A program made the position numbers and the translations under genes. This document shows, in pieces, positions 24-55,430 of a stretch of 57,929 bases of DNA; the stretch's first letter is position 1; the number at the start of each line of letters is the position of its first letter. This DNA is from a virus. Location of the stretch: positions 1-57,929 of IMG/VR virus record IMGVR_UViG_3300045988_084596. One strand, given 5' to 3'. The notes under the pieces were generated by a model. That model worked only from the letters and a program-made list of their open reading frames with translations. It had not been told where the DNA came from and searched no databases.

Positions 24-1241
24 ATGTCTGAAATAAATCAAGATACTACTTTCGAGCGTTTTTGTAGTTTTGACACTATGTATGATGCGTCTTATAAGGT
101 ATGCCGAAACGTTCGATGGAAAGATAGTACAATTAATTTTGAAGAGAATAGGATAGAAACAATTTTAAAAACAGAAGCTGATCTGCGAGCGTGTGAATAC
201 GAATAGCTTGTGTTTAGTTGTTTTTCGATAATCGAACGAGGCAAACCAAGAGATATAAGAGCGTGTCATATCAACGACAGACTGGTACAAAATGCGTTAT
301 GTGAACAAGTTTTATTACCAGAATTAACTCCTAGATTTATCTACGATAATTGTGCTACTTTAAGAGGAAAAGGAATAGACTTTGCTTTAAAAAGAGTAAA
401 GAAACATCTTCAACAAGCTCATAGAGAATATGGATTAGGAAAAGATTTTTATGGGTTAAGAATTGATATTCAAAAATATTTTGATTCTATTGACCATAAA
501 TCTTTAAAGAAAGCGGCTAAACGTTTGATAAAAGATAAAAGAATTTATCAACTATGCTGTTATTTAATAGATACATTTTCTTTTAAGCTAACAAAAGATT
601 CCTCTCCCATACCAGGAAAAGATTATTATATTAGTAAACGGCACAAATACACGAGAATTAGTACCACTAATTTTAAGCCTGGCCGCAAATACTATGAATA
701 TGATAATAAAAGTCTTGGATTAGGAAGTCAAACATCACAATTATTCGCATTGCTAGCATTGAACGAAATTGACCACTTCATCAAAGAAGAGTTACATATT
801 AAGTATTATGGTCGTTATATGGATGATTTATATTTATTCCACAATGACAGTCAATACTTAGCCGAATGTGAAAAGAGAATAGAAGTTCGCTTAAATAAAC
901 AAGGATTAAAGATGAATAAGAAAAAGACTACTATTACTAGAATCTCTCCTATTCACGCGGACGGCAAACGTCACGCTCCATTAAAATACTTAAAGTGGAA
1001 CTTTTATCTCACAGACACTAATCATATAATACAAATTCCTTTTAAAAAGAAAGTGGCTCATTAGCGCAGAAAGTTGAAGAAAATGCAAGCGCTATGGCTA
1101 GAGGGTAAAATTTCAACAGATGAAATTTAGAAATCCTATCAAGGTTGGAGGGCACATATTTCTAAAGGAACTTGTTTTTATATAATTCAAGATATGGACA
1201 ATTATTTTCGTTCATTATTTAAAGGAGTTGAAATAAAGTAA
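24..1241 (+). CDS. DGR-type reverse transcriptase (diversity-generating retroelement RT), translated through 3 in-frame TAG codons (204-206, 1062-1064, 1128-1130)
   Basis: RBS AAGGAGAAAGT before ATG at 24. Motifs ERGKPRDIRACHINDRLVQNAL (RT motif 1), QKYFDSIDH (motif 2), LGLGSQTSQLFALLALNEIDHF (SQ instead of SP, DGR hallmark), GRYMDDLYLF (YxDD active site), C-terminal thumb SYQGWRAHISKG. The ORF track splits it into 24-206 plus 210-1064, but both are in frame 0, as is the extension to the TAA at 1239-1241. Confidence 0.8.
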
Positions 1242-40811: not shown

Positions 40812-41144
40812 ATGTTCTTTGACGAACCATATTTAGATTTACCGGAAAAAGCATAGTATTATTTTAATATCTTAATAATCAGTATTGCTATATCTCCATA
40901 GTATGCTTAGGAAATCTTCCAAAATAAAGCAATAAGTTTATGGGATATTTAGGGAGTTAATGATCCTAGACCTATTGCTATTCATATATATACTTCTTAC
41001 CATATTAATAAAGATTTTGATTATGAAGTATAGTGTATTCCTCACTAGGTATTAGAAGTTAATGAAAATGAAATATCTTTCTATGAAATGATTGATTACG
41101 ATACTAGTGATCCTTGGAGGCTTGATCCAGATGCAATAGATTAA
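40812..41144 (+). CDS. hypothetical protein (110 aa), 7 TAG codons
   Basis: RBS ATAGGAGA before ATG at 40812. Open to TAA 41142-41144 only if TAG is read. Confidence 0.3.
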
Positions 41145-41916
41145 TATAAAAGAATATTTTCAACAATAGGTAAACAAATTGCGGGAGATTAGTGGTAATG
41201 TTCCATCACTCATGATTATCGACGCAACAGCCTAGGATCCCGCAAATCAAATTTATATTCGTAATAAAATAAAAGACTTTAATGCTCTTGGTTGGGAAGC
41301 AGAAGTGTTTAGAGCGAATAGTTCAGTAGAGTTAAGATTACTCTTAGGCCATGCGAAAGACTGGGATGCGGTAATAGTTCAAATGCCAGTAGCAAATGGA
41401 ATTGATTTCAATTATAGTCAAATACCTATCTCTAAAGATGCGGATGGTTTAAATCCTATGAGCAATATTACTCCAGCAACAGTAAGAGGAATTATAGACT
41501 ATTTGGATGAATGTGGTTTTAACTACGAAGGTAAATCTGCTGTTGTTTTGGGAAGAAGCGACATTGTAGGAAAGCCAATGGCTAAAGCTCTACTAGATAG
41601 AAATATGACCGTATCAGTATGTCATAGCAAAACAGATATAAATACAAAACTCTATTTAACAAGGCAAGCAGATTTAATTGTCTCTGCGGTAGGAAAATTT
41701 AGCTTAACAAGAGAAGCCTGTCCTAACGCTATTGTTATAGATGTTGGTATTCGCAGAAATGAAGCAGGAATTACTCTTGGAGACTTTGTAGAAATTGATG
41801 AAATTGCAAAAAGAAATAATGTATGGTCAACTCCTGTCCCCGGAGGAGTAGGTCTATTAACAAGATTGGGGTTGATGAAAAATTGTTTATAGTTAGCGAA
41901 ACAGGCGCAAAGATAA
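41131..41916 (+). CDS. folD: bifunctional methylenetetrahydrofolate dehydrogenase/cyclohydrolase (FolD), 4 in-frame TAG codons
   Basis: Aligns residue by residue to E. coli and B. subtilis FolD. DPANQIYIRNKIK matches NPASQIYVASKRK, VIVQMPVANGIDF matches LVQLPLPAGID, SKDADGLNP matches DKDVDGFHP, GRSDIVGKPMA matches GASNIVGRPM, VIDVGINRNE matches VIDVGINRLE, TPVPGGVGLLT matches TPVPGGVGPMT. The homology continues across TAG codons at 41137, 41167, 41233 and 41890; true stop is TAA at 41914-41916. Confidence 0.75.
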
Positions 41917-42269
41917 TGAAATTTTCGGGAGATTTTGACAAATATGCTGAAGAAGTTCTTCATATTAACAATCCCTTTCGAAAATTTTATCATACACAAA
42001 GTTCTTCAGTATTTAAAACTAACACCGATGGTATCATAACAATAGATATGGAAGAATCTCGAAAAATATATGAAGAAACAAAAGTAAATAGAGAAGAATG
42101 GATTAAATTAAGAGATAGATATGTCGCAGAAAGAATACTGCGGGAACTTGGATATGAAGTTCTATTAACCTCGTCTTATTTTGAATACTATCCTGATGCT
42201 ATTCCTTGTGAAGGAGCGTCAGGGCAATGCACAATAGACTGTAGAATGAATGGGTGTAAATATGAGTAA
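41917..42269 (+). CDS. hypothetical protein (117 aa)
   Basis: ATG abuts the FolD stop; TAA stop. Confidence 0.4.
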
Positions 42270-42450
42270 AATGTGTCCTTGTATTGATTATTGTTATAAT
42301 AGATTCGGTCGGTAGTACACACCAGACTGCGACAATACTTGCGATTATGCAATTAAAGTTAAAGAAAATAAAATGCTTAAAGAATATTTAAAGAGATTAG
42401 CGGCGGAAACAAATAGTTTACACACTTTATTTGAAGATTGGGATAATTAA
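42262..42450 (+). CDS. small Cys-rich protein (62 aa), one TAG
   Basis: MSKMCPCIDYCYNRFGR(Q)YTPDCDNTCDY...; TAA stop. Confidence 0.25.
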
Positions 42451-42494
42451 ATTATCCACTTCTGCCCAACCGCACGGAAGAAAGGAAACTGCAA

Positions 42495-43262
42495 ATGAAA
42501 CGAGAAGAGCTCAAACAACACGCGCAATCGCATTACGCAGACATTAAAGTGAGACTCAAGGAAGATACAGATCGCGCAATTATAAACTCTGAAATTTTTG
42601 GCCCCAATCTTCCTTTTCCGCTAAAACCGCAAGAAACCTACCATAATACCTTTTATCTTAAAGACCAAGATAGCGTATCCTGTCTATTTGGTTTAACCGA
42701 TCGGAGCAAGACCGCAATCTTAAATTATGCAAGCTATAAACATCCAGGTGGTTACTTCCTTGGAGGCAGCTCTGCACAAGAAGAGGCATTGTGTCACGAA
42801 AGCAACCTTTATCCTATTCTTCTTGCTTTTGATGATACTTATTACGCATGGAATAGACAGAGACTAAATCGAGCCCTATATCTTGATAGAGCTATCTATA
42901 CTCCTGATGTAGTCTTTGAAAAAGACAATGGTAGAAAATTAGCTGATGTAATTACTTGTGCTTCTCCTAATTATAGAACAGCACATACTTATCAGCAAGT
43001 TCCTCTTTCTCTAAACAATAGGATAATGGAAGAGAGAATTAATTTTATGTATCGGATTGCCGAGGCTAAGGGAGTGGAAAATTTAATCGCGGGAGCCTGG
43101 GGCTGTGGTGTTTTTATGCAAGATCCATCAACGGTCGCCACCTTGCTCGTAAGCGCAGCCCGCAATTATAATATTCCAAATATTTATTTTGCAATTCCAG
43201 ACCGCAATTCCCGCAATTTTAGAATTTTCTTGGAGGTTTTGGAAAAATGTTCAAGCAATTAA
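42495..43262 (+). CDS. bacterial-type poly(ADP-ribose) glycohydrolase-like macrodomain protein (DUF2263/TIGR02452 family)
   Basis: RBS GGAAGAAAGGAAAC. Signature ILNYASYKHPGGYFLGGSSAQEEALCHESNLY matches the PARG catalytic GGG-X6-8-QEE motif (T. curvata PARG LNFASA..PGGGFL.G..AQEE.LCR.S.LY). TAG-free; TAA stop. Confidence 0.75.
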   Translation: MKREELKQHAQSHYADIKVRLKEDTDRAIINSEIFGPNLPFPLKPQETYHNTFYLKDQDSVSCLFGLTDRSKTAILNYASYKHPGGYFLGGSSAQEEALCHESNLYPILLAFDDTYYAWNRQRLNRALYLDRAIYTPDVVFEKDNGRKLADVITCASPNYRTAHTYQQVPLSLNNRIMEERINFMYRIAEAKGVENLIAGAWGCGVFMQDPSTVATLLVSAARNYNIPNIYFAIPDRNSRNFRIFLEVLEKCSSN

Positions 43263-43684
43263 TTATCGCAAGACGAGATTTAAATATGTCTCCAGGGAAA
43301 CTTGCCGCACAAGTTTCCCATGCTTCTATTGCTTTTCTTTTGGAAAAGTTATATTGGGGAAGTAAAGAAGTTGTTAAAGAAAGAGACGGTCTTATGTATC
43401 ATATAGGAATAAGCCTCGATAGAGACTTATTCCATAACTGGATAGCGGAAGCGGAGACCAAAGTAGTTTGTAGAGCGAAGAATAAGAATGATTTGCTAAA
43501 AGCTGTTGCAATGGCTAAAGAATTAGGATGGGAAGAGAATAAAGACTACTGGCTTATTTATGATGCTTGTAGGACGGAGTTAGAGCGTGAAGGCCCGGAA
43601 GGGACTTTGACGTGTATTGGATTTAGGCCAATGGAGGCGGAAGAAATTGATAAAATTGGGAAGAAGTATCAGCTTTATAATTAA
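43247..43684 (+). CDS. peptidyl-tRNA hydrolase, PTH2 family
   Basis: N-terminus MFKQLIIARRDLNMSPGKLAAQVSHASIAF matches the PTH2 signature (human PTRH2 [25 protein letters not shown]). Overlaps the PARG-like gene by 16 nt; TAG-free. Confidence 0.75.
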   Translation: MFKQLIIARRDLNMSPGKLAAQVSHASIAFLLEKLYWGSKEVVKERDGLMYHIGISLDRDLFHNWIAEAETKVVCRAKNKNDLLKAVAMAKELGWEENKDYWLIYDACRTELEREGPEGTLTCIGFRPMEAEEIDKIGKKYQLYN

Positions 43685-47016: not shown

Positions 47017-47250
47017 ATGCAAGAAACTACTTTCTCTCGCAAATTAGATTCAAGTGGTAGAATTATGATTCCGATTCGCTTGCGTGAACAAATGGGACTT
47101 ACTTCCGGTTAGGAATACTATTTTACTACTATGGTAAAAGATGGTAGAAAATATATCTGTATTGACTGCGGATCGGTTGATTCCTCGCTTGAAGAAGCTA
47201 TGAAAATTATCCAAGCAAACGGATTAAAGATTGTTGAAAATGCCGATTGA
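47017..47250 (+). CDS. AbrB/SpoVT-like swapped-hairpin DNA-binding protein (77 aa) with one in-frame TAG at 47110
   Basis: KLDSSGRIMIPIRLREQMGLTSG(TAG)EYYFTTMVKDGRKYICI resembles the AbrB N-terminal domain (VDELGRVVIPIELRR.LGI...). TGA stop, then a double terminator. Confidence 0.55.
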
Positions 47251-47329: not shown

Positions 47330-47368
47330 CGCCCGGCCGTGCACTATAGGCGCGGCCGGAATTTTTTA
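47330..47368 (+). terminator. conserved GC-rich hairpin terminator (family member 2)
   Basis: GCCCGGCCGtgcactataggCGCGGCCGGAATTTTTTAT. Confidence 0.55.
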
Positions 47369-50278: not shown

Positions 50279-50680
50279 ATGAGCGAGAAGAAAATCCGTA
50301 TCACTAAGGCCCAGCGTTTCGAGGACATTAAGGCCCTCTTGGCTGGTGATGAGGTGAAGCATGGCACAACCATGGAGATTGCCATGACCGTCATTGACCA
50401 TGAGCTGGAGCTGTTGCGGAAGAAGAATAGCTCCGGCGGTGACAAGAAGCTGACCTCGACCCAGCAGGAGAACGAAAACTTTAAGGAGCAGATTATGGAG
50501 TATCTGGCTGGTCTGGACGCCGATACCGATGGCGTGACCTGCACGGAAATTTTTAAGGCTATTCCTGATCTGACGGCCTATTCTAACCAGAAGGTCGCCG
50601 CTCTTGTGCGGCAGTTGAAACTCGATGGTCGAGTAGTCTGCACGGAGAAGAAGGGCAAGTCCCTCTTTAAGATGGCGTAA
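50279..50680 (+). CDS. hypothetical protein (133 aa), compositionally atypical (GC-rich codons), possible winged-helix C-terminus
   Basis: RBS AGAAAGGATGTATTACC. Codon usage (CTG, GAG, AAG, GCC) differs visibly from the rest of the window. Followed by hairpin GGGCGGGGtgaaaatCCCCGCCC. Confidence 0.45.
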   Translation: MSEKKIRITKAQRFEDIKALLAGDEVKHGTTMEIAMTVIDHELELLRKKNSSGGDKKLTSTQQENENFKEQIMEYLAGLDADTDGVTCTEIFKAIPDLTAYSNQKVAALVRQLKLDGRVVCTEKKGKSLFKMA

Positions 50681-50818
50681 CCCCGTATAGGGCGGGGTGA
50701 AAATCCCCGCCCTAACTTATAATATGGGGGTGATATTATATCCAGTCGCATTAGTGACGCTGAACGGATTGCAAGGTATAAAGCCCTGCAATTAACGCCG
50801 GAAGAGGAGGCAGATTTA

Positions 50819-51136
50819 TTGGCCTATGATAAGGCGGTAGAGGCTGATAAAAAGACTGAATACGATTTATCGCCAGAAAAGGCGAAAATCGCTCAAAAGT
50901 TTGCCCATGCTGGAACGCGCAAACAGCCAACCGCATATAAGTTCACTACACGGCAACGCAAGCCAAACGCCACGAAAGGCGGTATAATTGCGGAATTGGC
51001 AGAGTTTTTGGAAAAAAACAGTCAATTCTCTATCGCTGACTTGTCTATTACTAACAAGGAAAGACAGATTGCGTTTTCTATTGGTGGGGATAGTTTCGAG
51101 TTGACGCTTGTGCAAAAGCGTAAGCCGAAGAAATAA
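50819..51136 (+). CDS. hypothetical basic protein (about 105 aa); start uncertain
   Basis: TTG at 50819 from the track. The frame is open back to 50723 with no ATG. Followed by hairpin CGGGGTAGGgtcggCCTACCCCG. Confidence 0.3.
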   Translation: MAYDKAVEADKKTEYDLSPEKAKIAQKFAHAGTRKQPTAYKFTTRQRKPNATKGGIIAELAEFLEKNSQFSIADLSITNKERQIAFSIGGDSFELTLVQKRKPKK

Positions 51137-51587: not shown

Positions 51588-51628
51588 TGGGCGGACCGCT
51601 TGCGTGCGCCGCGGTCCGATTTTTTCTT
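51588..51628 (+). terminator. conserved GC-rich hairpin terminator (family member 5)
   Basis: GGGCGGACCGCttgcgtgcGCCGCGGTCCGATTTTTTC. Confidence 0.55.
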
Positions 51629-51679: not shown

Positions 51680-51708
51680 TTGACTTTCTCCCAAAAATGT
51701 GGTATCAT
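51680..51708 (+). promoter_or_regulatory. sigma70-type promoter
   Basis: TTGACT-17-TATCAT with extended TG, preceded by TTTCTCCCAAAAA. Confidence 0.45.
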
Positions 51709-51734: not shown

Positions 51735-52187
51735 ATGGAAAGTCTGAAACAATTTCGTGTTAATTTTCAAGTTACCTTTTGGTGTGAAGGTCGCAAGGGT
51801 ATTTTCTCTAAGAAGCCTTATAAATTTACGGTATCATTTTGTGATGATATTATACTTTCTACCTTTTTAATCAATGCTCGAACCGAAAAAGAAGCGGTTA
51901 AAACGGGGAAAAACTATGTTGAAAATATAGTTCAATGTTGGGTTGAACAGTCAGAAGAAAATCAAGCCACAGGCGAATATATGATTTTAACTGGAAATAT
52001 GGCTGATACAAAAAGATTTGAGTGGTCGCCTAAAATCTACGCCATTACCGGGTATGAAATTAAATTTATTTCTTGTGAAATGGTTTGCGACTGGGCAAAA
52101 GAAAGGGTCGAGAGAGCGGCAAGAGAACTGACTATGGAGCAATTTAAGCAAGTTTTTAGTGAAATTCCGGCTGAGATTTTTCATTAA
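51735..52187 (+). CDS. hypothetical protein (150 aa)
   Basis: RBS AAAGGAGATAAAAGAA before ATG at 51735. Confidence 0.4.
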   Translation: MESLKQFRVNFQVTFWCEGRKGIFSKKPYKFTVSFCDDIILSTFLINARTEKEAVKTGKNYVENIVQCWVEQSEENQATGEYMILTGNMADTKRFEWSPKIYAITGYEIKFISCEMVCDWAKERVERAARELTMEQFKQVFSEIPAEIFH

Positions 52188-52204: not shown

Positions 52205-52456
52205 ATGGTTGATATTGATTTCAACAAACTGAATGACGAGGAGTTGCAATGGTTGAGTGCTACAGCCTATAAAGAAGTGGCACTTAGAAAACAAAAAGCG
52301 CGAGAGAAAGATTGGAATAGTCTAATCGAAGAGATAGACGAGTATTGTAAAAAGTATGGAGAAATAACTATCGTTGAATATGGAGATAAATTTGTTCTTG
52401 AATTTCCGATACGGTGTAACTGTATAGGAGAAATCAATTTAGAAAACGAGGATTAA
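52205..52456 (+). CDS. hypothetical protein (83 aa)
   Basis: RBS AAAGGAGATTTTTAG before ATG. Confidence 0.4.
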   Translation: MVDIDFNKLNDEELQWLSATAYKEVALRKQKAREKDWNSLIEEIDEYCKKYGEITIVEYGDKFVLEFPIRCNCIGEINLENED

Positions 52457-52458
52457 GA

Positions 52459-52486
52459 AAAGAGAGGCTTCGGCCTCTCTTTTATT
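52459..52486 (+). terminator. intrinsic terminator (UUCG tetraloop hairpin)
   Basis: AAGAGAGGCTTCGGCCTCTCTT then TTATTT. Confidence 0.5.
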
Positions 52487-52502
52487 TCATATTTCCTAAA
52501 CT

Positions 52503-52541
52503 CGACGGGCCGATCGCGGGCGACTCGGCCCGAGTTTCCCC
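52503..52541 (+). repeat. GC-rich hairpin family member 6 (no T-run)
   Basis: CGACGGGCCGatcgcgggcgactCGGCCCGAG has the same architecture as the five terminator hairpins but ends in TTTCCCC. Confidence 0.4.
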
Positions 52542-53269
52542 GATCGGACCATAGCGCAAAATTTTCATAGCAACTTGGCCATAACGCAACTTCATAGCGA
52601 TTTTCCCAAAATTCATAACGCCCTCTTCCAAACACCGATCGGCCCTACTTTACTTCTTCCTTTATCTAGTTCCGATCGGTTCAGCAATATTGGCTCTCTC
52701 GTCCAATTTTTTATAATAAAAATCTTAAAATTGTCAAGTATTCACAGTACCAAAACTTTCTAAAATACAACTAGCAATAGCAAAGATATAGCTATGAAAA
52801 ACAAATACGACCAGAGATTTCTTTCGCGGAGCCGATCGGTTTAACACGATTTTATGATAAAAATAGCTTAAAAATAGAGATTTTAGCTAGATAAACCGAT
52901 CGGCCCGCAATCTTTTACCTTTTGTTATCGCAAAATATAACAAAAAACCTCTAAAATCTTGCAAAAATGCGCGTTTTTCTAACAAATTTACTTAAAAATA
53001 AGTAAAAAATGCCTCGTTTTTCTCAAAATTTCTTGATATTCACAGAATTAAAACCATTAAAGATACAGCAAACAATAGCAAAGATGTTGCTAACTATTTG
53101 AAAAGGAAAAATCTTTTCCGCGGGATTCCATTAAAGCGATCTTTTTATCTAGACCCGATCGGTTCGACAATATATAAAAAATATAATATAATATATACAT
53201 AAGATAAAGAAAAGGAGGATTTTAGTTTAAGAAGCATCATAACGCTTTTTCTAACTAAAAGAACTTATT

Positions 53270-53713
53270 ATGAATAGTTATGAGATTATGATTCGTGATG
53301 CAATGCAGAATGGTTCTACTCAGGAGGAGATTGCAAAGGCATTTACCGATGCTATGAATAGAATCTCCGAGGCTAACGCCGCAGACCGTGAACGCGATAT
53401 TCTTCTGGATGAGATTGAGTCTACTTTTTATGGCAATGTTGATGATTTGTCTCTCACTGAGGATGACGTTGGTCGTGTAGCTGCGCTGGTTTATAGCAAG
53501 AGCAATCCTAAGTGGACAGCAAATGATATTAAGCAGTTTATGCAGGCTATGACTGTAACTGCTAAGACTTCCGCTCGAGTAGTCAATGCAAAGAGTCTTG
53601 ATGAAGTAATTGACATTGCTGTTGACTCTATTTCTGATGCTCTCGCAGGTAGTATGAATAAGGCTAAGACTGATGAGGACAATATCATGGAGTTTTTGAG
53701 ACATTTGAAGTAA
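53270..53713 (+). CDS. hypothetical acidic protein (147 aa)
   Basis: Protein-like composition on the plus strand; the antisense ORF 53255-53722 is low-complexity. Weak RBS; followed by terminator GGAGAGAAGtattgtaGCTTCTCTCC plus a T-run. Confidence 0.4.
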   Translation: MNSYEIMIRDAMQNGSTQEEIAKAFTDAMNRISEANAADRERDILLDEIESTFYGNVDDLSLTEDDVGRVAALVYSKSNPKWTANDIKQFMQAMTVTAKTSARVVNAKSLDEVIDIAVDSISDALAGSMNKAKTDEDNIMEFLRHLK

Positions 53714-53899
53714 GATAAACAAGAGGAAAAAGATTAAAGGAGAGAAGTATTGTAGCTTCTCTCCTTTTTTATATATATTATAATCGCGGAAGGCTAGGTT
53801 TACGATCGTTGTGACGAGTGTTGTGATGGTTGTACCTAGACCCGATCGGCACCCAACTCCACCATTTTATAAACTCCTTTTAATTTCCTTTAATTTCTT

Positions 53900-54319
53900 T
53901 CAATCTTCATATAAAGATAATCTATATCTCTATCCAGTTCTATTTATCTCTCTTATCCTTCCAACCAAATCATATATCTCTCCATTTTTATCTCGATTTT
54001 TCAATTCGATTTCTCTAAAACCTTCTTCTAACTTTTCAATTCGTTTTTCTAAATCGGTTATAGAGTCCTCTAAATCTTGAGTAAAAACATCTATACTTAT
54101 CCTATTATGATATTTATCTACTATAACTCTACTTCTTCCTTCTACCTTTAAATTCTCTTCCATCCATTCTTCTAACTTATCATCAAATTTATTCTTTACA
54201 AAATATACCTTGCCTTCTTCTTCATCATCTTTAAAGTAAACTAATACTGGTTCATACTAATTTAATCCATTTTTCACGAATTGATAATTTTCTACCTTAA
54301 TTGGTTTAAATACTTCCAT
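53900..54319 (-). CDS. hypothetical protein (139 aa), 2 TAG codons
   Basis: RBS TAATGGAGGATAAAAAT before ATG at 54319. Frame includes ORF 53930-54163 and ends at TGA 53900-53902. Confidence 0.4.
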
Positions 54320-54450
54320 ATTTTTATCCTCCATTATAATTGCGGGCACATGGGACTTCGATATTCTGAGAGCGGAGCTCGAAGAAATATCGAAGTCCCT
54401 TAGATAAATTATTTAGTATATTATTTAGATATAATATGATTTTTTACCTC

Positions 54451-54496
54451 TCGTAAATAGATAAAATTACCCTTTCGTAGATAGATAAAATTACCC
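54451..54496. repeat. two 22-bp direct repeats (iteron-like)
   Basis: TCGTAAATAGATAAAATTACCC at 54451-54472 and TCGTAGATAGATAAAATTACCC at 54475-54496, overlapping the 3' end of the replication-organiser-like gene. Confidence 0.45.
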
Positions 54497-55129
54497 ATTC
54501 AGCTCAATAGTCAAATTAAACTAGATTAATCTCATACGAGGAACGGGTTTACCATTACTCTAATCATAATAATTTTCATACTCAATAAGACCAAGCTTTG
54601 ACAAACACAGTAGCGCATTTGTCACAATCTAAGAATTTCTTGAACTTCCTTCTGTTTTTAATCCTATATGTTCACCGATCTCCTTAAGAGTAAAACTATA
54701 TTTTTCATCCGTGCCTAAAGATTCTTTATATTTCCATCTTTGCCCTAAATATGTGTAAACCTTGATTACCTATTCCTTCAAAGTATCATTTATAAATCTC
54801 AAAGTCTACAATGGAATCATAAAAAAAATATCTTCTTTCATAGGAAGAATATACTACCTATTTTCTTCATCATCAATTATATAACCCTAAGCTATAAGAT
54901 AATCTCTGTGCGCTCGATAAGTCTTTGGAGTTTTTATACCAAGTTTCTCACATAGACTATTCTACGAAGGAACATCATCTTTTGAAACCACTGTCTATCC
55001 ATTTTTATCTACATACGATAATTCCTAAAATAACGCATATAATTCTCCATCAATCTTTTTGTCATTTAAAAAAGTCTAGGTATCAAGAGTTACATTAGCA
55101 GGAAATCTTTTTGATATATTTCCTTTCAT
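54490..55129 (-). CDS. phage replisome organiser / DnaD-like N-terminal domain protein (~200 aa), about 10 TAG codons, with a +1 frame discontinuity near 55019-55023
   Basis: RBS ATAAGGAGGTGATAGAAG before ATG at 55129. The body frame (ATG at 55065 to TAA at 54490-54492) encodes FFMIPLQTLRFINDTLKEQVIKVYTYLGQRWKYKESLGTDEKYSFTLKEIGEHIGLK, resembling the phage replication-organiser N-terminal domain. The two frames join seamlessly if one T of the run at 55019-55021 is skipped. Confidence 0.45.
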
Positions 55130-55430
55130 CTTCTATCACCTCCTTATATTATATAAAAAATAAAGGGTAAAAACAAATTAACTTTACCCAATAACTAAAT
55201 ATTTTCTCAAAATCATGATATACTTCCTCTACGTACATATGAAATTTTACCTCAATTTTTTACCTCTTTTGGATATTCCGATCGTTTTTAAAATGCGGGA
55301 TTGCCAATTTCTCTGCCTAAAAAATTCCCGCATCCGTGAGAAATTATGACGGTTCGTTATAATCCATAAGATTTACTTGCATATCTTAATAAAATACGGT
55401 AATATATTTATATAAATAAGAAAAGAGGTT

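What the first reader, a model, noticed from the sequence alone, without database searches (positions are those of the whole stretch)
52457..53850. Putative origin or regulatory hub: 800-bp non-coding region with CCGATCGG palindromes and ~130-bp direct repeats
This is the largest non-coding stretch in the window. It is AT-rich yet punctuated by seven perfect copies of the 8-bp palindrome CCGATCGG, which contains GATC and the CGATCG site. Two copies share the 14-mer CTAGACCCGATCGG.

It also holds two long imperfect direct repeats. The palindromes bracket gene 53270-53713.

It lies about 1.2 kb from a DnaD-like replication-organiser gene that has its own 22-bp iterons. The arrangement suits an origin of replication, or a cluster of binding sites for a dedicated regulator, or a partition-like centromere.
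Basis: seen in the sequence. Interest (0 to 1): 0.65.

Follow-up and report, generated by a model that had tools for sequence, protein, structure and literature searches.

The report
Conserved palindrome array beside phage origin
An 0.8-kb untranslated stretch of a stop-codon-recoded gut phage carries seven copies of the palindrome CCGATCGG, and related phage lineages keep them at the same spot beside the replication-initiator gene, so this is a real control region, though the factor that reads it is unknown.

Summary
CCGATCGG occurs 8 times in the 57.9-kb window (0.12 expected), and 7 copies lie in 52540-53849.

The window is part of a TAG-recoded Caudoviricetes phage of about 120-150 kb. It is distantly related to phAss-1 and probably infects gut Clostridia.

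I found the same module in at least four diverged lineages. Their non-coding DNA is only 45-55% identical and the embedded 147-aa protein only 18-31% identical, yet the 8-mer is kept perfectly. In eight non-redundant lineages there are 46 copies in 11 kb of modules and 2 copies in 159 kb outside. The bases flanking the 8-mer are not conserved.

From 5' to 3' the module holds:
- a strong promoter;
- a GC hairpin supported by covariation;
- a first site;
- CATAGCG/CATATGC repeats;
- further sites among two more consensus promoters;
- a fast-evolving gene (replaced by the rep gene in one lineage);
- a terminator;
- a last site.

The module always lies next to a Rep-like winged-helix gene. That gene has its own 24-bp iterons, which are the better origin candidate.

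My best reading is an operator array for an unidentified dimeric DNA-binding protein that controls origin-proximal early transcription. An accessory role at the origin, or action at the RNA level, remains possible. A partition centromere is unlikely.

The parts
51680..51708 (+). Promoter P1 (TTGACT-17-TATCAT with an extended TG). In the other lineages the equivalent promoter sits directly in front of the GC hairpin. Here two extra genes (51735-52187 and 52205-52456) lie between them.
52458..52483 (+). Intrinsic terminator of the inserted two-gene unit
52506..52532 (+). GC hairpin: 8-bp stem CGGGCCGA/TCGGCCCG and an 11-nt loop, followed by AGTTTCC. It is conserved in all lineages with compensatory changes. 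It is likely a 5' stabiliser or attenuator on the plus-strand RNA.
   Evidence: 98% of cells paired; the top pair occurs as GU, AU, GC and UA
52540..52547 (.). CCGATCGG site 1, 7 nt after the hairpin. It holds the same position in the L139, L146, L169 and L171 lineages and is absent in L174.
52550..52621 (+). Five copies of a second motif, CATAGCG/CATAACGC (52550, 52566, 52580, 52593, 52614), plus TTTTCCCAAAA (52601-52611). The other lineages carry CATATGC and TTTTCCCGAAA at the same place.
52635..52642 (.). CCGATCGG site 2
52672..52679 (.). CCGATCGG site 3, 10 bp upstream of the -35 of Pmid
52690..52717 (+). Promoter Pmid (TTGGCT-16-TATAAT)
   Evidence: equivalents in L139 and L146
52684..52887 (+). 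Direct-repeat unit A. Its copy of the site-plus-promoter junction is degenerate.
52832..52839 (.). CCGATCGG site 4. It forms a 13-bp inverted repeat with site 5.
   Evidence: I10
52896..52903 (.). CCGATCGG site 5
52961..53226 (+). Direct-repeat unit B
53155..53162 (.). CCGATCGG site 6. It ends 1 bp before the -35 of P2, with its centre about -40.5. The spacing is identical in the L139 group.
53164..53192 (+). Promoter P2 (TCGACA-17-TATAAT, 11 of 12 consensus positions)
53270..53713 (+). 147-aa all-helical protein of unknown function. It evolves fast (18-31% identity between lineages) and belongs to a family of 1225 metagenomic proteins with no Pfam domain. The L173/L174 lineage lacks it.
53736..53767 (.). 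Bidirectional intrinsic terminator
53842..53849 (.). CCGATCGG site 7, beyond the terminator, in a conserved context (GTGACG ... CTAGAC-site-CACCCAAC)
54400..54500 (.). Neighbouring candidate origin: an AT-rich 12-13-mer x3 (54400-54437) and 24-bp iterons x2.2 (54447-54500), just downstream of the rep gene
   Evidence: analogous iterons in L005
54491..55129 (-). Rep-like winged-helix/HTH gene with 11 in-frame TAG codons. It is syntenic with the module in all lineages.

Best explanation
The 0.8-kb spacer is the control region of an origin-proximal immediate-early transcription unit, and the CCGATCGG copies are operators in double-stranded DNA.

**Proposed mechanism.** Host sigma-A RNA polymerase fires from two or three tandem near-consensus promoters (P1, Pmid, P2) as soon as the DNA enters the cell. 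A sequence-specific, twofold-symmetric dimeric DNA-binding protein, most probably phage-encoded, then occupies the 8-bp palindromes. The sites lie next to, between and downstream of these promoters, and one lies beyond the terminator facing the rep/iteron region. I expect the protein to bind cooperatively or by looping. Binding would switch the unit off, or retime it, relative to the start of replication next door.

**What is shown.**
- The statistical excess of the palindrome.
- Its exclusive clustering in the module.
- Its perfect conservation across diverged lineages.
- The promoters, terminators and 5' hairpin.
- The synteny with the rep gene.

**What is inferred.**
- That the sites act as DNA rather than RNA.
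- That the effect is repression or timing.
- The identity of the binding protein. The candidates from co-occurrence are the highly conserved 105-aa basic protein (50819-51136) and the 133-aa winged-helix-like protein (50279-50680) just upstream. The AbrB/MazE-like protein (47017-47250) is a third candidate.
For: **Excess and clustering.** There are 8 copies against 0.12 expected, and 7 lie within 1.3 kb. In eight non-redundant lineages there are 46 copies in 11.3 kb of modules and 2 copies in 158.6 kb outside.

**Selective conservation.** CCGATCGG is the only 8-mer repeated in all three lineages compared in that test. The non-coding DNA is only 44-54% identical, and the embedded protein only 18-31%. 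Within the window's own clade the flanks mutate while the 8-mers stay. The flanks are not conserved and the core is a perfect dyad, as expected for a symmetric dimer site.

**Position relative to promoters.** Site 6 ends exactly 1 bp before the -35 of the near-consensus promoter P2, both in the window and in the L139 group. Other sites lie within about 10-40 bp upstream of Pmid in all three lineages, and at about +16 to +20 downstream of its start in L146 and L174. One site lies beyond a strong terminator, where the plus-strand RNA should rarely reach.

**No consistent RNA pairing.** No partner pairing of sites recurs across lineages, and the two strands give similar duplex energies.

**Candidate binders.** The 105-aa and 133-aa proteins accompany the module in every motif-bearing lineage. 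The motif-less relatives L005 and L006 lack the 105-aa protein in the DNA held.
Against: - No binding protein is identified. The 105-aa model has low confidence (pLDDT 68) and no fold match. The 133-aa protein has no family hit. The 147-aa protein is helical with no DNA-binding fold.
- Apart from P2, site positions relative to the promoters differ between lineages.
- Site 1 lies at about +33 to +42 of the P1 transcript, at a fixed distance after an RNA hairpin. That hints at RNA-level action.
- Some site pairs have G.U-extended complementarity (7 extra pairs in L139 and in L146). Extensions of 5 or more occur in 8.5% of site pairs, against 2.6% at random positions.
- The L174 lineage lacks site 1.
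Confidence: 0.4

Rival explanations
1. Accessory part of the replication origin. Strong promoters would drive an untranslated, structured transcript toward the Rep/iteron region. This would activate or prime the origin by transcription, as in lactococcal phage c2 ori, T4 oriF/oriG, lambda ori activation and ColE1 (from my own knowledge). The GC-rich palindromes in AT-rich DNA would bind an origin-accessory protein or anchor RNA-DNA hybrids. This reading is not exclusive of the operator model.
For: - The module is always next to the Rep-like gene and its iterons. The last site is only about 100 bp from the first iteron in L141 and about 600 bp here.
- In L173/L174 the module directly precedes the rep gene and there is no 147-aa gene.
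- Two or three tandem consensus promoters all point toward the iterons.
- The 5' hairpin shows covariation, so the RNA matters.
- 52700-53269 is AT-rich, with GC 0.29.
Against: - The canonical origin features (iterons and an adjacent AT-rich repeat) lie outside the palindrome cluster.
- A strong bidirectional terminator separates the promoters from the iterons.
- DnaA boxes are not enriched.
- GC skew follows gene orientation only.
- The motif-less relative L005 has Rep plus iterons without any CCGATCGG, so the palindromes are not needed by this initiator family.
Confidence: 0.25
2. RNA-level element. CCGAUCGG copies in the long leader, and in the 3' UTR of the convergent rep-operon mRNA, would pair with one another within or between molecules, or be read by an RNA-binding protein or RNase. 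This would control stability, attenuation or processing of the early transcripts.
For: - Apart from the last site, which lies beyond the terminator, all sites lie in one plus-strand transcription unit that begins with a hairpin kept by compensatory changes. G.U is the commonest top pair, which fits RNA on the plus strand.
- Site 1 follows that hairpin at a fixed 4-7 nt, and the last site abuts another conserved stem.
- The window's leader (52500-52920) folds better than shuffles, z = -5.0.
- Extended complementarity between some site pairs includes G.U-only extensions.
Against: - A palindrome pairs with itself trivially, so the folds are not independent evidence.
- The L139 and L146 leaders fold no better than shuffles (z = -1.2 and -1.5).
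- The best partner pairs differ between lineages, and the minus strand scores as well as the plus strand.
- L148 breaks the 4/5 extension without compensation.
- If only structure mattered, the cores would covary rather than stay identical.
- No Rfam family matches.
Confidence: 0.17
3. Target cluster for a DNA-modifying or DNA-cutting enzyme. The GATC or CGATCG core would be methylated, or a nuclease or terminase would cut there, as at the GATC-containing hexamers of the P1 pac site or the GATC heptamers of P1 oriR. Possible outcomes are a methylation-timed switch, a packaging start or a recombination hotspot.
For: - An exactly conserved 8-bp palindrome with free flanks resembles a restriction-modification-type recognition site.
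- A T5orf172 (GIY-YIG-related) gene lies just upstream in most lineages.
- One 138-kb contig is broken inside the module.
Against: - No methyltransferase or terminase gene was found among the neighbouring genes tested.
- The terminase and late genes are more than 12 kb away.
- The T5orf172 gene was not found within 10 kb of the L146 module.
- Other contigs end at unrelated positions.
- GATC is only mildly under-represented in the window overall, at 0.63 of expectation.
Confidence: 0.06
4. Partition centromere (a parS-like array) of a phage-plasmid.
For: It is a cluster of identical palindromes in a non-coding region.
Against: - No ParA/ParB-type Pfam hit appears in the called genes within +/-10 kb of three related loci or in the window genes tested.
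- The region has no similarity to any PLSDB plasmid.
- The only genome-collection hits are phage-sized contigs binned into MAGs.
- The sites are interleaved with strong promoters and a gene.
Confidence: 0.03

Closest known systems
Conserved inverted repeats (CIRs) of Streptomyces phage phiC31 and stoperators of mycobacteriophage L5 (own knowledge)
   Same: Both are many copies of one short sequence, confined to intergenic DNA of a phage and conserved between relatives. A phage regulator reads them to control early transcription.
   Different: Those sites are 13-17 bp long, scattered over the whole genome, and bound by the known prophage repressor. Here the sites are a bare 8-bp palindrome concentrated in one 1.3-kb module. 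No repressor or lysogeny genes were seen, and the binding protein is unknown.
GATC-containing repeat clusters of phage P1 (seven TGATCA/G hexamers in pac; five GATC heptamers in oriR) (own knowledge)
   Same: Each is a handful of short GATC-core repeats clustered in about 0.2-1 kb, forming a cis-acting site linked to replication or packaging.
   Different: The P1 elements work through Dam methylation and lie inside pacA or beside RepA iterons and DnaA boxes. Here methylation is untested, no methyltransferase was seen, DnaA boxes are not enriched, and the sites are interleaved with promoters.
Iteron-type phage and plasmid origins (lambda O/ori, SPP1 G38P/oriL, lactococcal Rep/ori) and the transcribed non-coding ori of lactococcal phage c2 (own knowledge)
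   Same: A winged-helix initiator gene flanked by direct-repeat iterons and AT-rich DNA lies next door. Strong promoters produce an untranslated structured RNA nearby.
   Different: The CCGATCGG copies are palindromes, not iterons. They are irregularly spaced and are missing from a relative that has the same Rep-plus-iteron arrangement (L005).
HIP1 (GCGATCGC), the highly iterated palindrome of cyanobacteria (mentioned in PMC8112702)
   Same: It is an 8-bp palindrome with the same CGATCG core, kept by selection.
   Different: HIP1 is dispersed genome-wide in thousands of copies. Here the motif is essentially absent outside one module.

Membership tests
Operator array of a phage transcription regulator | Short dyad-symmetric sites, repeated, far above chance | tested here: met
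   8 copies against 0.12 expected; 46 copies in 11 kb of modules and 2 copies in 159 kb outside
Operator array of a phage transcription regulator | Sites overlap or abut promoters | tested here: inconclusive
   Site 6 ends 1 bp before the -35 of P2 in two lineages. The other sites lie at variable distances, and one lies beyond a terminator.
Operator array of a phage transcription regulator | Sites conserved while the surrounding non-coding DNA diverges | tested here: met
Operator array of a phage transcription regulator | A cognate DNA-binding protein is identified | tested here: inconclusive
   Candidates come from co-occurrence only: the 105-aa, 133-aa and AbrB-like proteins. No DNA-binding fold was demonstrated.
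Iteron-type replication origin | Tandem direct-repeat iterons for the adjacent initiator | tested here: not met
   The palindromes are not direct repeats. The iterons lie at 54447-54500 and 55243-55266, outside the finding.
Iteron-type replication origin | Adjacent initiator gene | tested here: met
   A Rep-like HTH gene at 54491-55129 is syntenic in all lineages. The family assignment is weak: HTH_36 E = 6e-4, below the curated cut-off.
Iteron-type replication origin | DnaA boxes or a skew inflection | tested here: not met
   DnaA-box-like 9-mers occur at background density. GC skew follows gene orientation.
Iteron-type replication origin | Replication initiates here | not testable with these tools
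   This needs marker-frequency or 2D-gel data from infected cells.
Partition centromere (parS/parC) | Adjacent parA/parB (or parM/parR) genes | tested here: not met
   No such Pfam hits in the called genes within +/-10 kb of L169, L171 and L173 or in the window genes tested
Partition centromere (parS/parC) | The element resides on a plasmid or plasmid-prophage | tested here: not met
   No PLSDB match. The genome-collection hits are phage-sized contigs only.
Structured cis-regulatory RNA | Base pairs supported by covariation | tested here: inconclusive
   Met for the 5' hairpin. Not met for pairings between palindromes.
Structured cis-regulatory RNA | Match to a described RNA family | tested here: not met
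   Rfam at gathering and E-value thresholds gave only terminator-like noise.
pac/cos packaging site | Location at or next to the small-terminase gene, or at genome termini | tested here: not met
   The module sits at the end of the early operon, more than 12 kb from the late genes. Contig ends are inconsistent.

The most novel reading that the evidence does not exclude
A dedicated recognition system of a type not yet described would couple shut-off of immediate-early transcription to replication start in stop-codon-recoded gut phages. An uncharacterised, very conserved small basic protein (the 105-aa family, about 2000 metagenomic members, no Pfam domain) would read the bare 8-bp palindrome CCGATCGG, either as DNA or as an RNA duplex formed between leader copies. 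Alternatively, the palindromes could let the leader RNA and the convergent rep mRNA pair with each other.
Probability: 0.15. Interest if true: 0.6.

Novelty: new member of a known kind. Interest (0 to 1): 0.42.

Why it matters
These 120-150-kb TAG-recoded phages are common in human and animal gut metagenomes. The three protein families searched have about 200 to 2000 members. Their regulation is unknown.

This module is a compact, clearly delimited cis-regulatory element lying between the standard-code early operon and the recoded rep gene. It offers a practical entry point for several questions:
- which protein reads it;
- how early transcription is timed against replication and against the switch of genetic code;
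- where the origin lies.

The finding also corrects the gene picture. The window must be read with TAG as a sense codon, and the true iteron origin candidate is 0.6 kb to the right of the finding.

Tried and rejected
- **tRNA or known RNA genes in the spacer.** ARAGORN found none. Rfam found nothing at gathering or E-value thresholds.
- **DNA similarity to GenBank phages or plasmids.** No match. The 147-aa and 105-aa proteins also have no tblastn hit in the phage collection.
- **Function of the embedded 147-aa gene.** No Pfam, PHROG or NCBIfam hit and no PDB sequence hit. The AF2 model (pLDDT 79) has no significant fold match in PDB or BFVD.
- **The 105-aa candidate binder.** The AF2 model has pLDDT 68 and no significant match. 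dsRBD-like hits have probability below 0.1.
- **DnaA boxes.** They occur at background density.
- **YGCGGR as a third motif.** It is not enriched.
- **Specific RNA helices between palindromes.** Partner choice is not conserved and there is no strand asymmetry.
- **Generic scan for CCGATCGG pairs in viral contigs.** The hits were mostly GC-rich chance matches and collagen-like GPIG coding repeats (L064, L084). The scan also revealed the first diverged orthologues, L063, L076 and L112.
- **Genome-collection scan.** Nearly all hits were chance. Only two phage-sized contigs, binned as Eubacterium and Oscillospiraceae MAGs, carry the module.
- **Literature search for CCGATCGG.** It returned no operator or recognition site of this sequence.
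Full report
**1. What the window is**

With the standard code, the minus-strand block 2.4-40.8 kb is broken into short ORFs. Reading TAG as a sense codon restores long genes. One gene of 2841 codons has 108 in-frame TAGs. Coverage by ORFs of at least 150 codons rises from 17.5 kb to 56.3 kb.

A structural protein has 40-53% identity to Enterococcus Schiekvirus-like phages and to phage phAss-1. phAss-1 is a 136-kb gut phage described as using code 15, with a predicted Clostridia host (PMC10607447).

Genes on the plus strand at 41-52.5 kb use the standard code. This is an early operon with FolD-like, PARG, PTH2 and PNK-like genes and many small ORFs. No tRNA gene lies in the window.

**2. The observation**

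- CCGATCGG occurs 8 times, against 0.12 expected and a shuffle maximum of 1.
- Seven copies lie at 52540-53849. The eighth is inside the PARG gene.
- 52457-53269 is non-coding under either code and is the largest gap in my gene list.
- The two long direct repeats are real. A 72-nt ungapped core is 72% identical. The gapped units 52684-52887 and 52961-53226 score 84, against at most 42 for shuffles.
- In that alignment site 4 matches site 6. The sequence after site 4 is a decayed copy of promoter P2. The repeats are therefore an old tandem duplication of a 'leader-site-promoter' unit.
- The duplication is shared by the window's clade (W, L148, L169, L171). It is weak or absent in the other clades.
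- Only 52700-53269 is AT-rich (GC 0.29). The first 240 bp have GC 0.48.

**3. Transcription signals**

- A strong terminator (52458-52483) ends the upstream genes.
- Promoters Pmid (52690-52717) and P2 (53164-53192, 11 of 12 consensus positions) point rightward.
- The 147-aa gene (53270-53713) is followed by a bidirectional terminator (53736-53767).
- Site 6 ends 1 bp before the -35 of P2.

**4. Relatives**

Close relatives (96% identity) keep all seven sites. A pattern scan for pairs of the palindrome in viral contigs gave mostly GC-rich chance hits and collagen-like coding repeats. It also uncovered diverged orthologues. Further searches with proteins and patterns gave these lineages.

| Lineage | Sites in the module |
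|---|---|
| Window clade (W, L148, L153, L162, L169-L171, L211, L227) | 6-7 |
| L139 group (more than 12 contigs, including the L151/L164 and L159 subgroups) | 5-6 |
| L112/L146 | 5 |
| L173/L174 | 2 |

Non-coding identity to the window is about 53% for the L139 group and 44% for L146. The 147-aa protein is 31% and 18-20% identical, while the upstream genes are 55-80% identical.

In every 10-20-kb locus the palindrome occurs in the module and almost nowhere else. The totals are 46 copies in 11.3 kb of modules and 2 copies in 158.6 kb outside. It is the only 8-mer repeated in all three lineages compared in that test. The flanking bases are not conserved. Within the window's clade the flanks mutate while the 8-mers persist. 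This is strong evidence of selection on the 8-mer itself.

**5. Conserved architecture**

From 5' to 3' the module holds:
- the terminator of the upstream gene;
- a consensus promoter P1 (TTGACA-17-TGnTATAAT);
- a GC hairpin with a 7-8-bp stem and an 11-13-nt loop, followed by (A)GUUUY;
- site 1, 4-7 nt later;
- three to six copies of CATAGCG/CATAACGC (or CATATGC in other clades), plus TTTTCCCGAAA;
- further sites interleaved with Pmid and P2;
- a downstream gene;
- a terminator;
- a last site in a conserved context.

In the window, P1 is at 51680-51708, and two extra genes sit between it and the hairpin.

The hairpin is supported by covariation. 98% of cells are paired. Two pairs change on both sides. 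The top pair occurs as G.U, A-U, G-C and U-A. Only 4 of 500 shuffles reach the observed score. The prevalent G.U argues that the plus-strand RNA is the relevant species. Similar large-loop GC hairpins followed by U runs act as terminators elsewhere in the early operon (47333-47359, 51593-51619). I therefore read the hairpin as a 5' stabiliser or an attenuator.

**6. Link to replication**

To the right, on the minus strand, lies a Rep-like gene (54491-55129, 11 TAG codons). Its family evidence is weak:
- a weak HTH_36 hit;
- very weak RepA-type hits;
- precomputed HTH_11, HTH_36 and HTH_Crp_2 hits on a homologue.

Its own repeats flank it. There are 24-bp iterons at 54447-54500 next to an AT-rich 12-13-mer x3, and TTTTACCTC copies at 55243-55266. 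The same iteron flanks Rep in L141, only about 100 bp from the last palindrome. L005 is a relative without any CCGATCGG, and it has three 24-bp iterons just after its Rep gene.

In L173/L174 the 147-aa gene is absent. There the leader, with two palindromes, directly precedes the rep gene. The non-coding module is therefore tied to the Rep/ori neighbourhood rather than to the 147-aa gene. The initiator family does not need the palindromes.

DnaA-box-like sequences are at background density. GC skew simply mirrors gene orientation.

**7. DNA or RNA?**

RNA folds pair the palindromes with each other, but that is trivial for a palindrome. Only the window's leader folds better than shuffles (z = -5.0, against -1.2 and -1.5 for L139 and L146).

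Extended complementarity between site pairs is somewhat enriched. Extensions of 5 or more occur in 8.5% of pairs, against 2.6% at random positions. Two are 7-bp G.U-containing extensions.

Against a specific RNA structure:
- the best partners differ between lineages;
- the minus strand scores as well as the plus strand;
- L148 breaks one extension without compensation.

If structure alone mattered, the cores would drift. I therefore favour recognition of the duplex 8-mer by a symmetric protein, as DNA. RNA-level action stays as a live rival.

**8. Who binds?**

The question is not resolved.
- **The 147-aa protein** is all-helical (pLDDT 79) and has no fold or family match.
- **The 105-aa basic protein** is picked out by co-occurrence. 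It is 51-99% identical across lineages and has 1981 homologues. Its real N-terminus probably extends upstream. It was not found in the DNA held for the motif-less relatives. Its model is weak and unmatched.
- **The 133-aa protein** has a winged-helix-like C-terminus by eye only, with no family hit.
- **The AbrB/MazE-like 77-aa gene** (47017-47250; Pfam hits just below cut-off) is conserved in two clades. It carries an in-frame TAG at codon 32.

**9. Verdict**

The feature is real, strongly selected and, as far as I could find, undescribed. It is most simply a new example of a known kind of element: a clustered operator array in a phage early control region, placed next to the replication module. 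The origin proper is better assigned to the iterons at 54.4-54.5 kb. The centromere reading is unlikely. The binding factor, and the choice between DNA and RNA action, remain open.

Noticed in passing
window 2385-40754 (minus strand) and 53900-55129: The genes are readable only if TAG is a sense codon. One gene has 108 in-frame TAGs. The early plus-strand operon at 41-52.5 kb is essentially TAG-free. No suppressor tRNA gene lies in the window.
   Followed up: partly
window 47017-47250: An AbrB/MazE-like 77-aa regulator gene sits inside the standard-code early operon and has a single in-frame TAG at codon 32 (47110-47112). The full-length protein would be made only once TAG suppression is active, which could act as a built-in timer. 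The gene is 60% identical in the L139 group.
   Followed up: partly
window 24-1241: A reverse-transcriptase gene (RVT_1, E = 1e-16, 3 TAG codons) lies at the left edge of the window, upstream of the minus-strand late-gene block. It may be a diversity-generating retroelement.
   Followed up: no
window 54400-54500 and 55243-55266: 24-bp iterons x2.2 and an AT-rich 12-13-mer x3 lie just after the Rep-like gene. Related TTTTACCTC copies and a one-mismatch palindrome (55278) lie in its promoter region. This is the best origin candidate in the window.
   Followed up: partly
window 47333-47359, 51593-51619, 52506-52532: The early-operon terminators are GC-rich stems of 7-8 bp with unusually large 11-13-nt loops.
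   Followed up: no
window 41131-43684; L169 1073-1633: The early operon encodes FolD-like, PARG (ADP-ribose glycohydrolase) and PTH2 (peptidyl-tRNA hydrolase) proteins. A relative adds a SIR2 gene. These look like counter-defence or host-takeover genes.
   Followed up: no
L146 (IMGVR_UViG_3300031555_002663): ORF statistics in this lineage improve more when TGA is recoded (46.5 kb) than when TAG is recoded (33.9 kb). A relative carrying the same module may therefore use a different recoded stop codon.
   Followed up: no
L017, L018, L072, L074, L115, L128: Unrelated low-GC viral contigs carry pairs of a longer palindrome with the same core (AAATTTCCCGATCGGGAAATTT), spaced 49-50 bp apart. These look like a two-site operator of another system.
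   Followed up: no
window 50723-51136: The 105-aa ORF is probably about 135 aa long. The 30 codons upstream of the listed TTG start are conserved in homologues but have no ATG here.
   Followed up: partly
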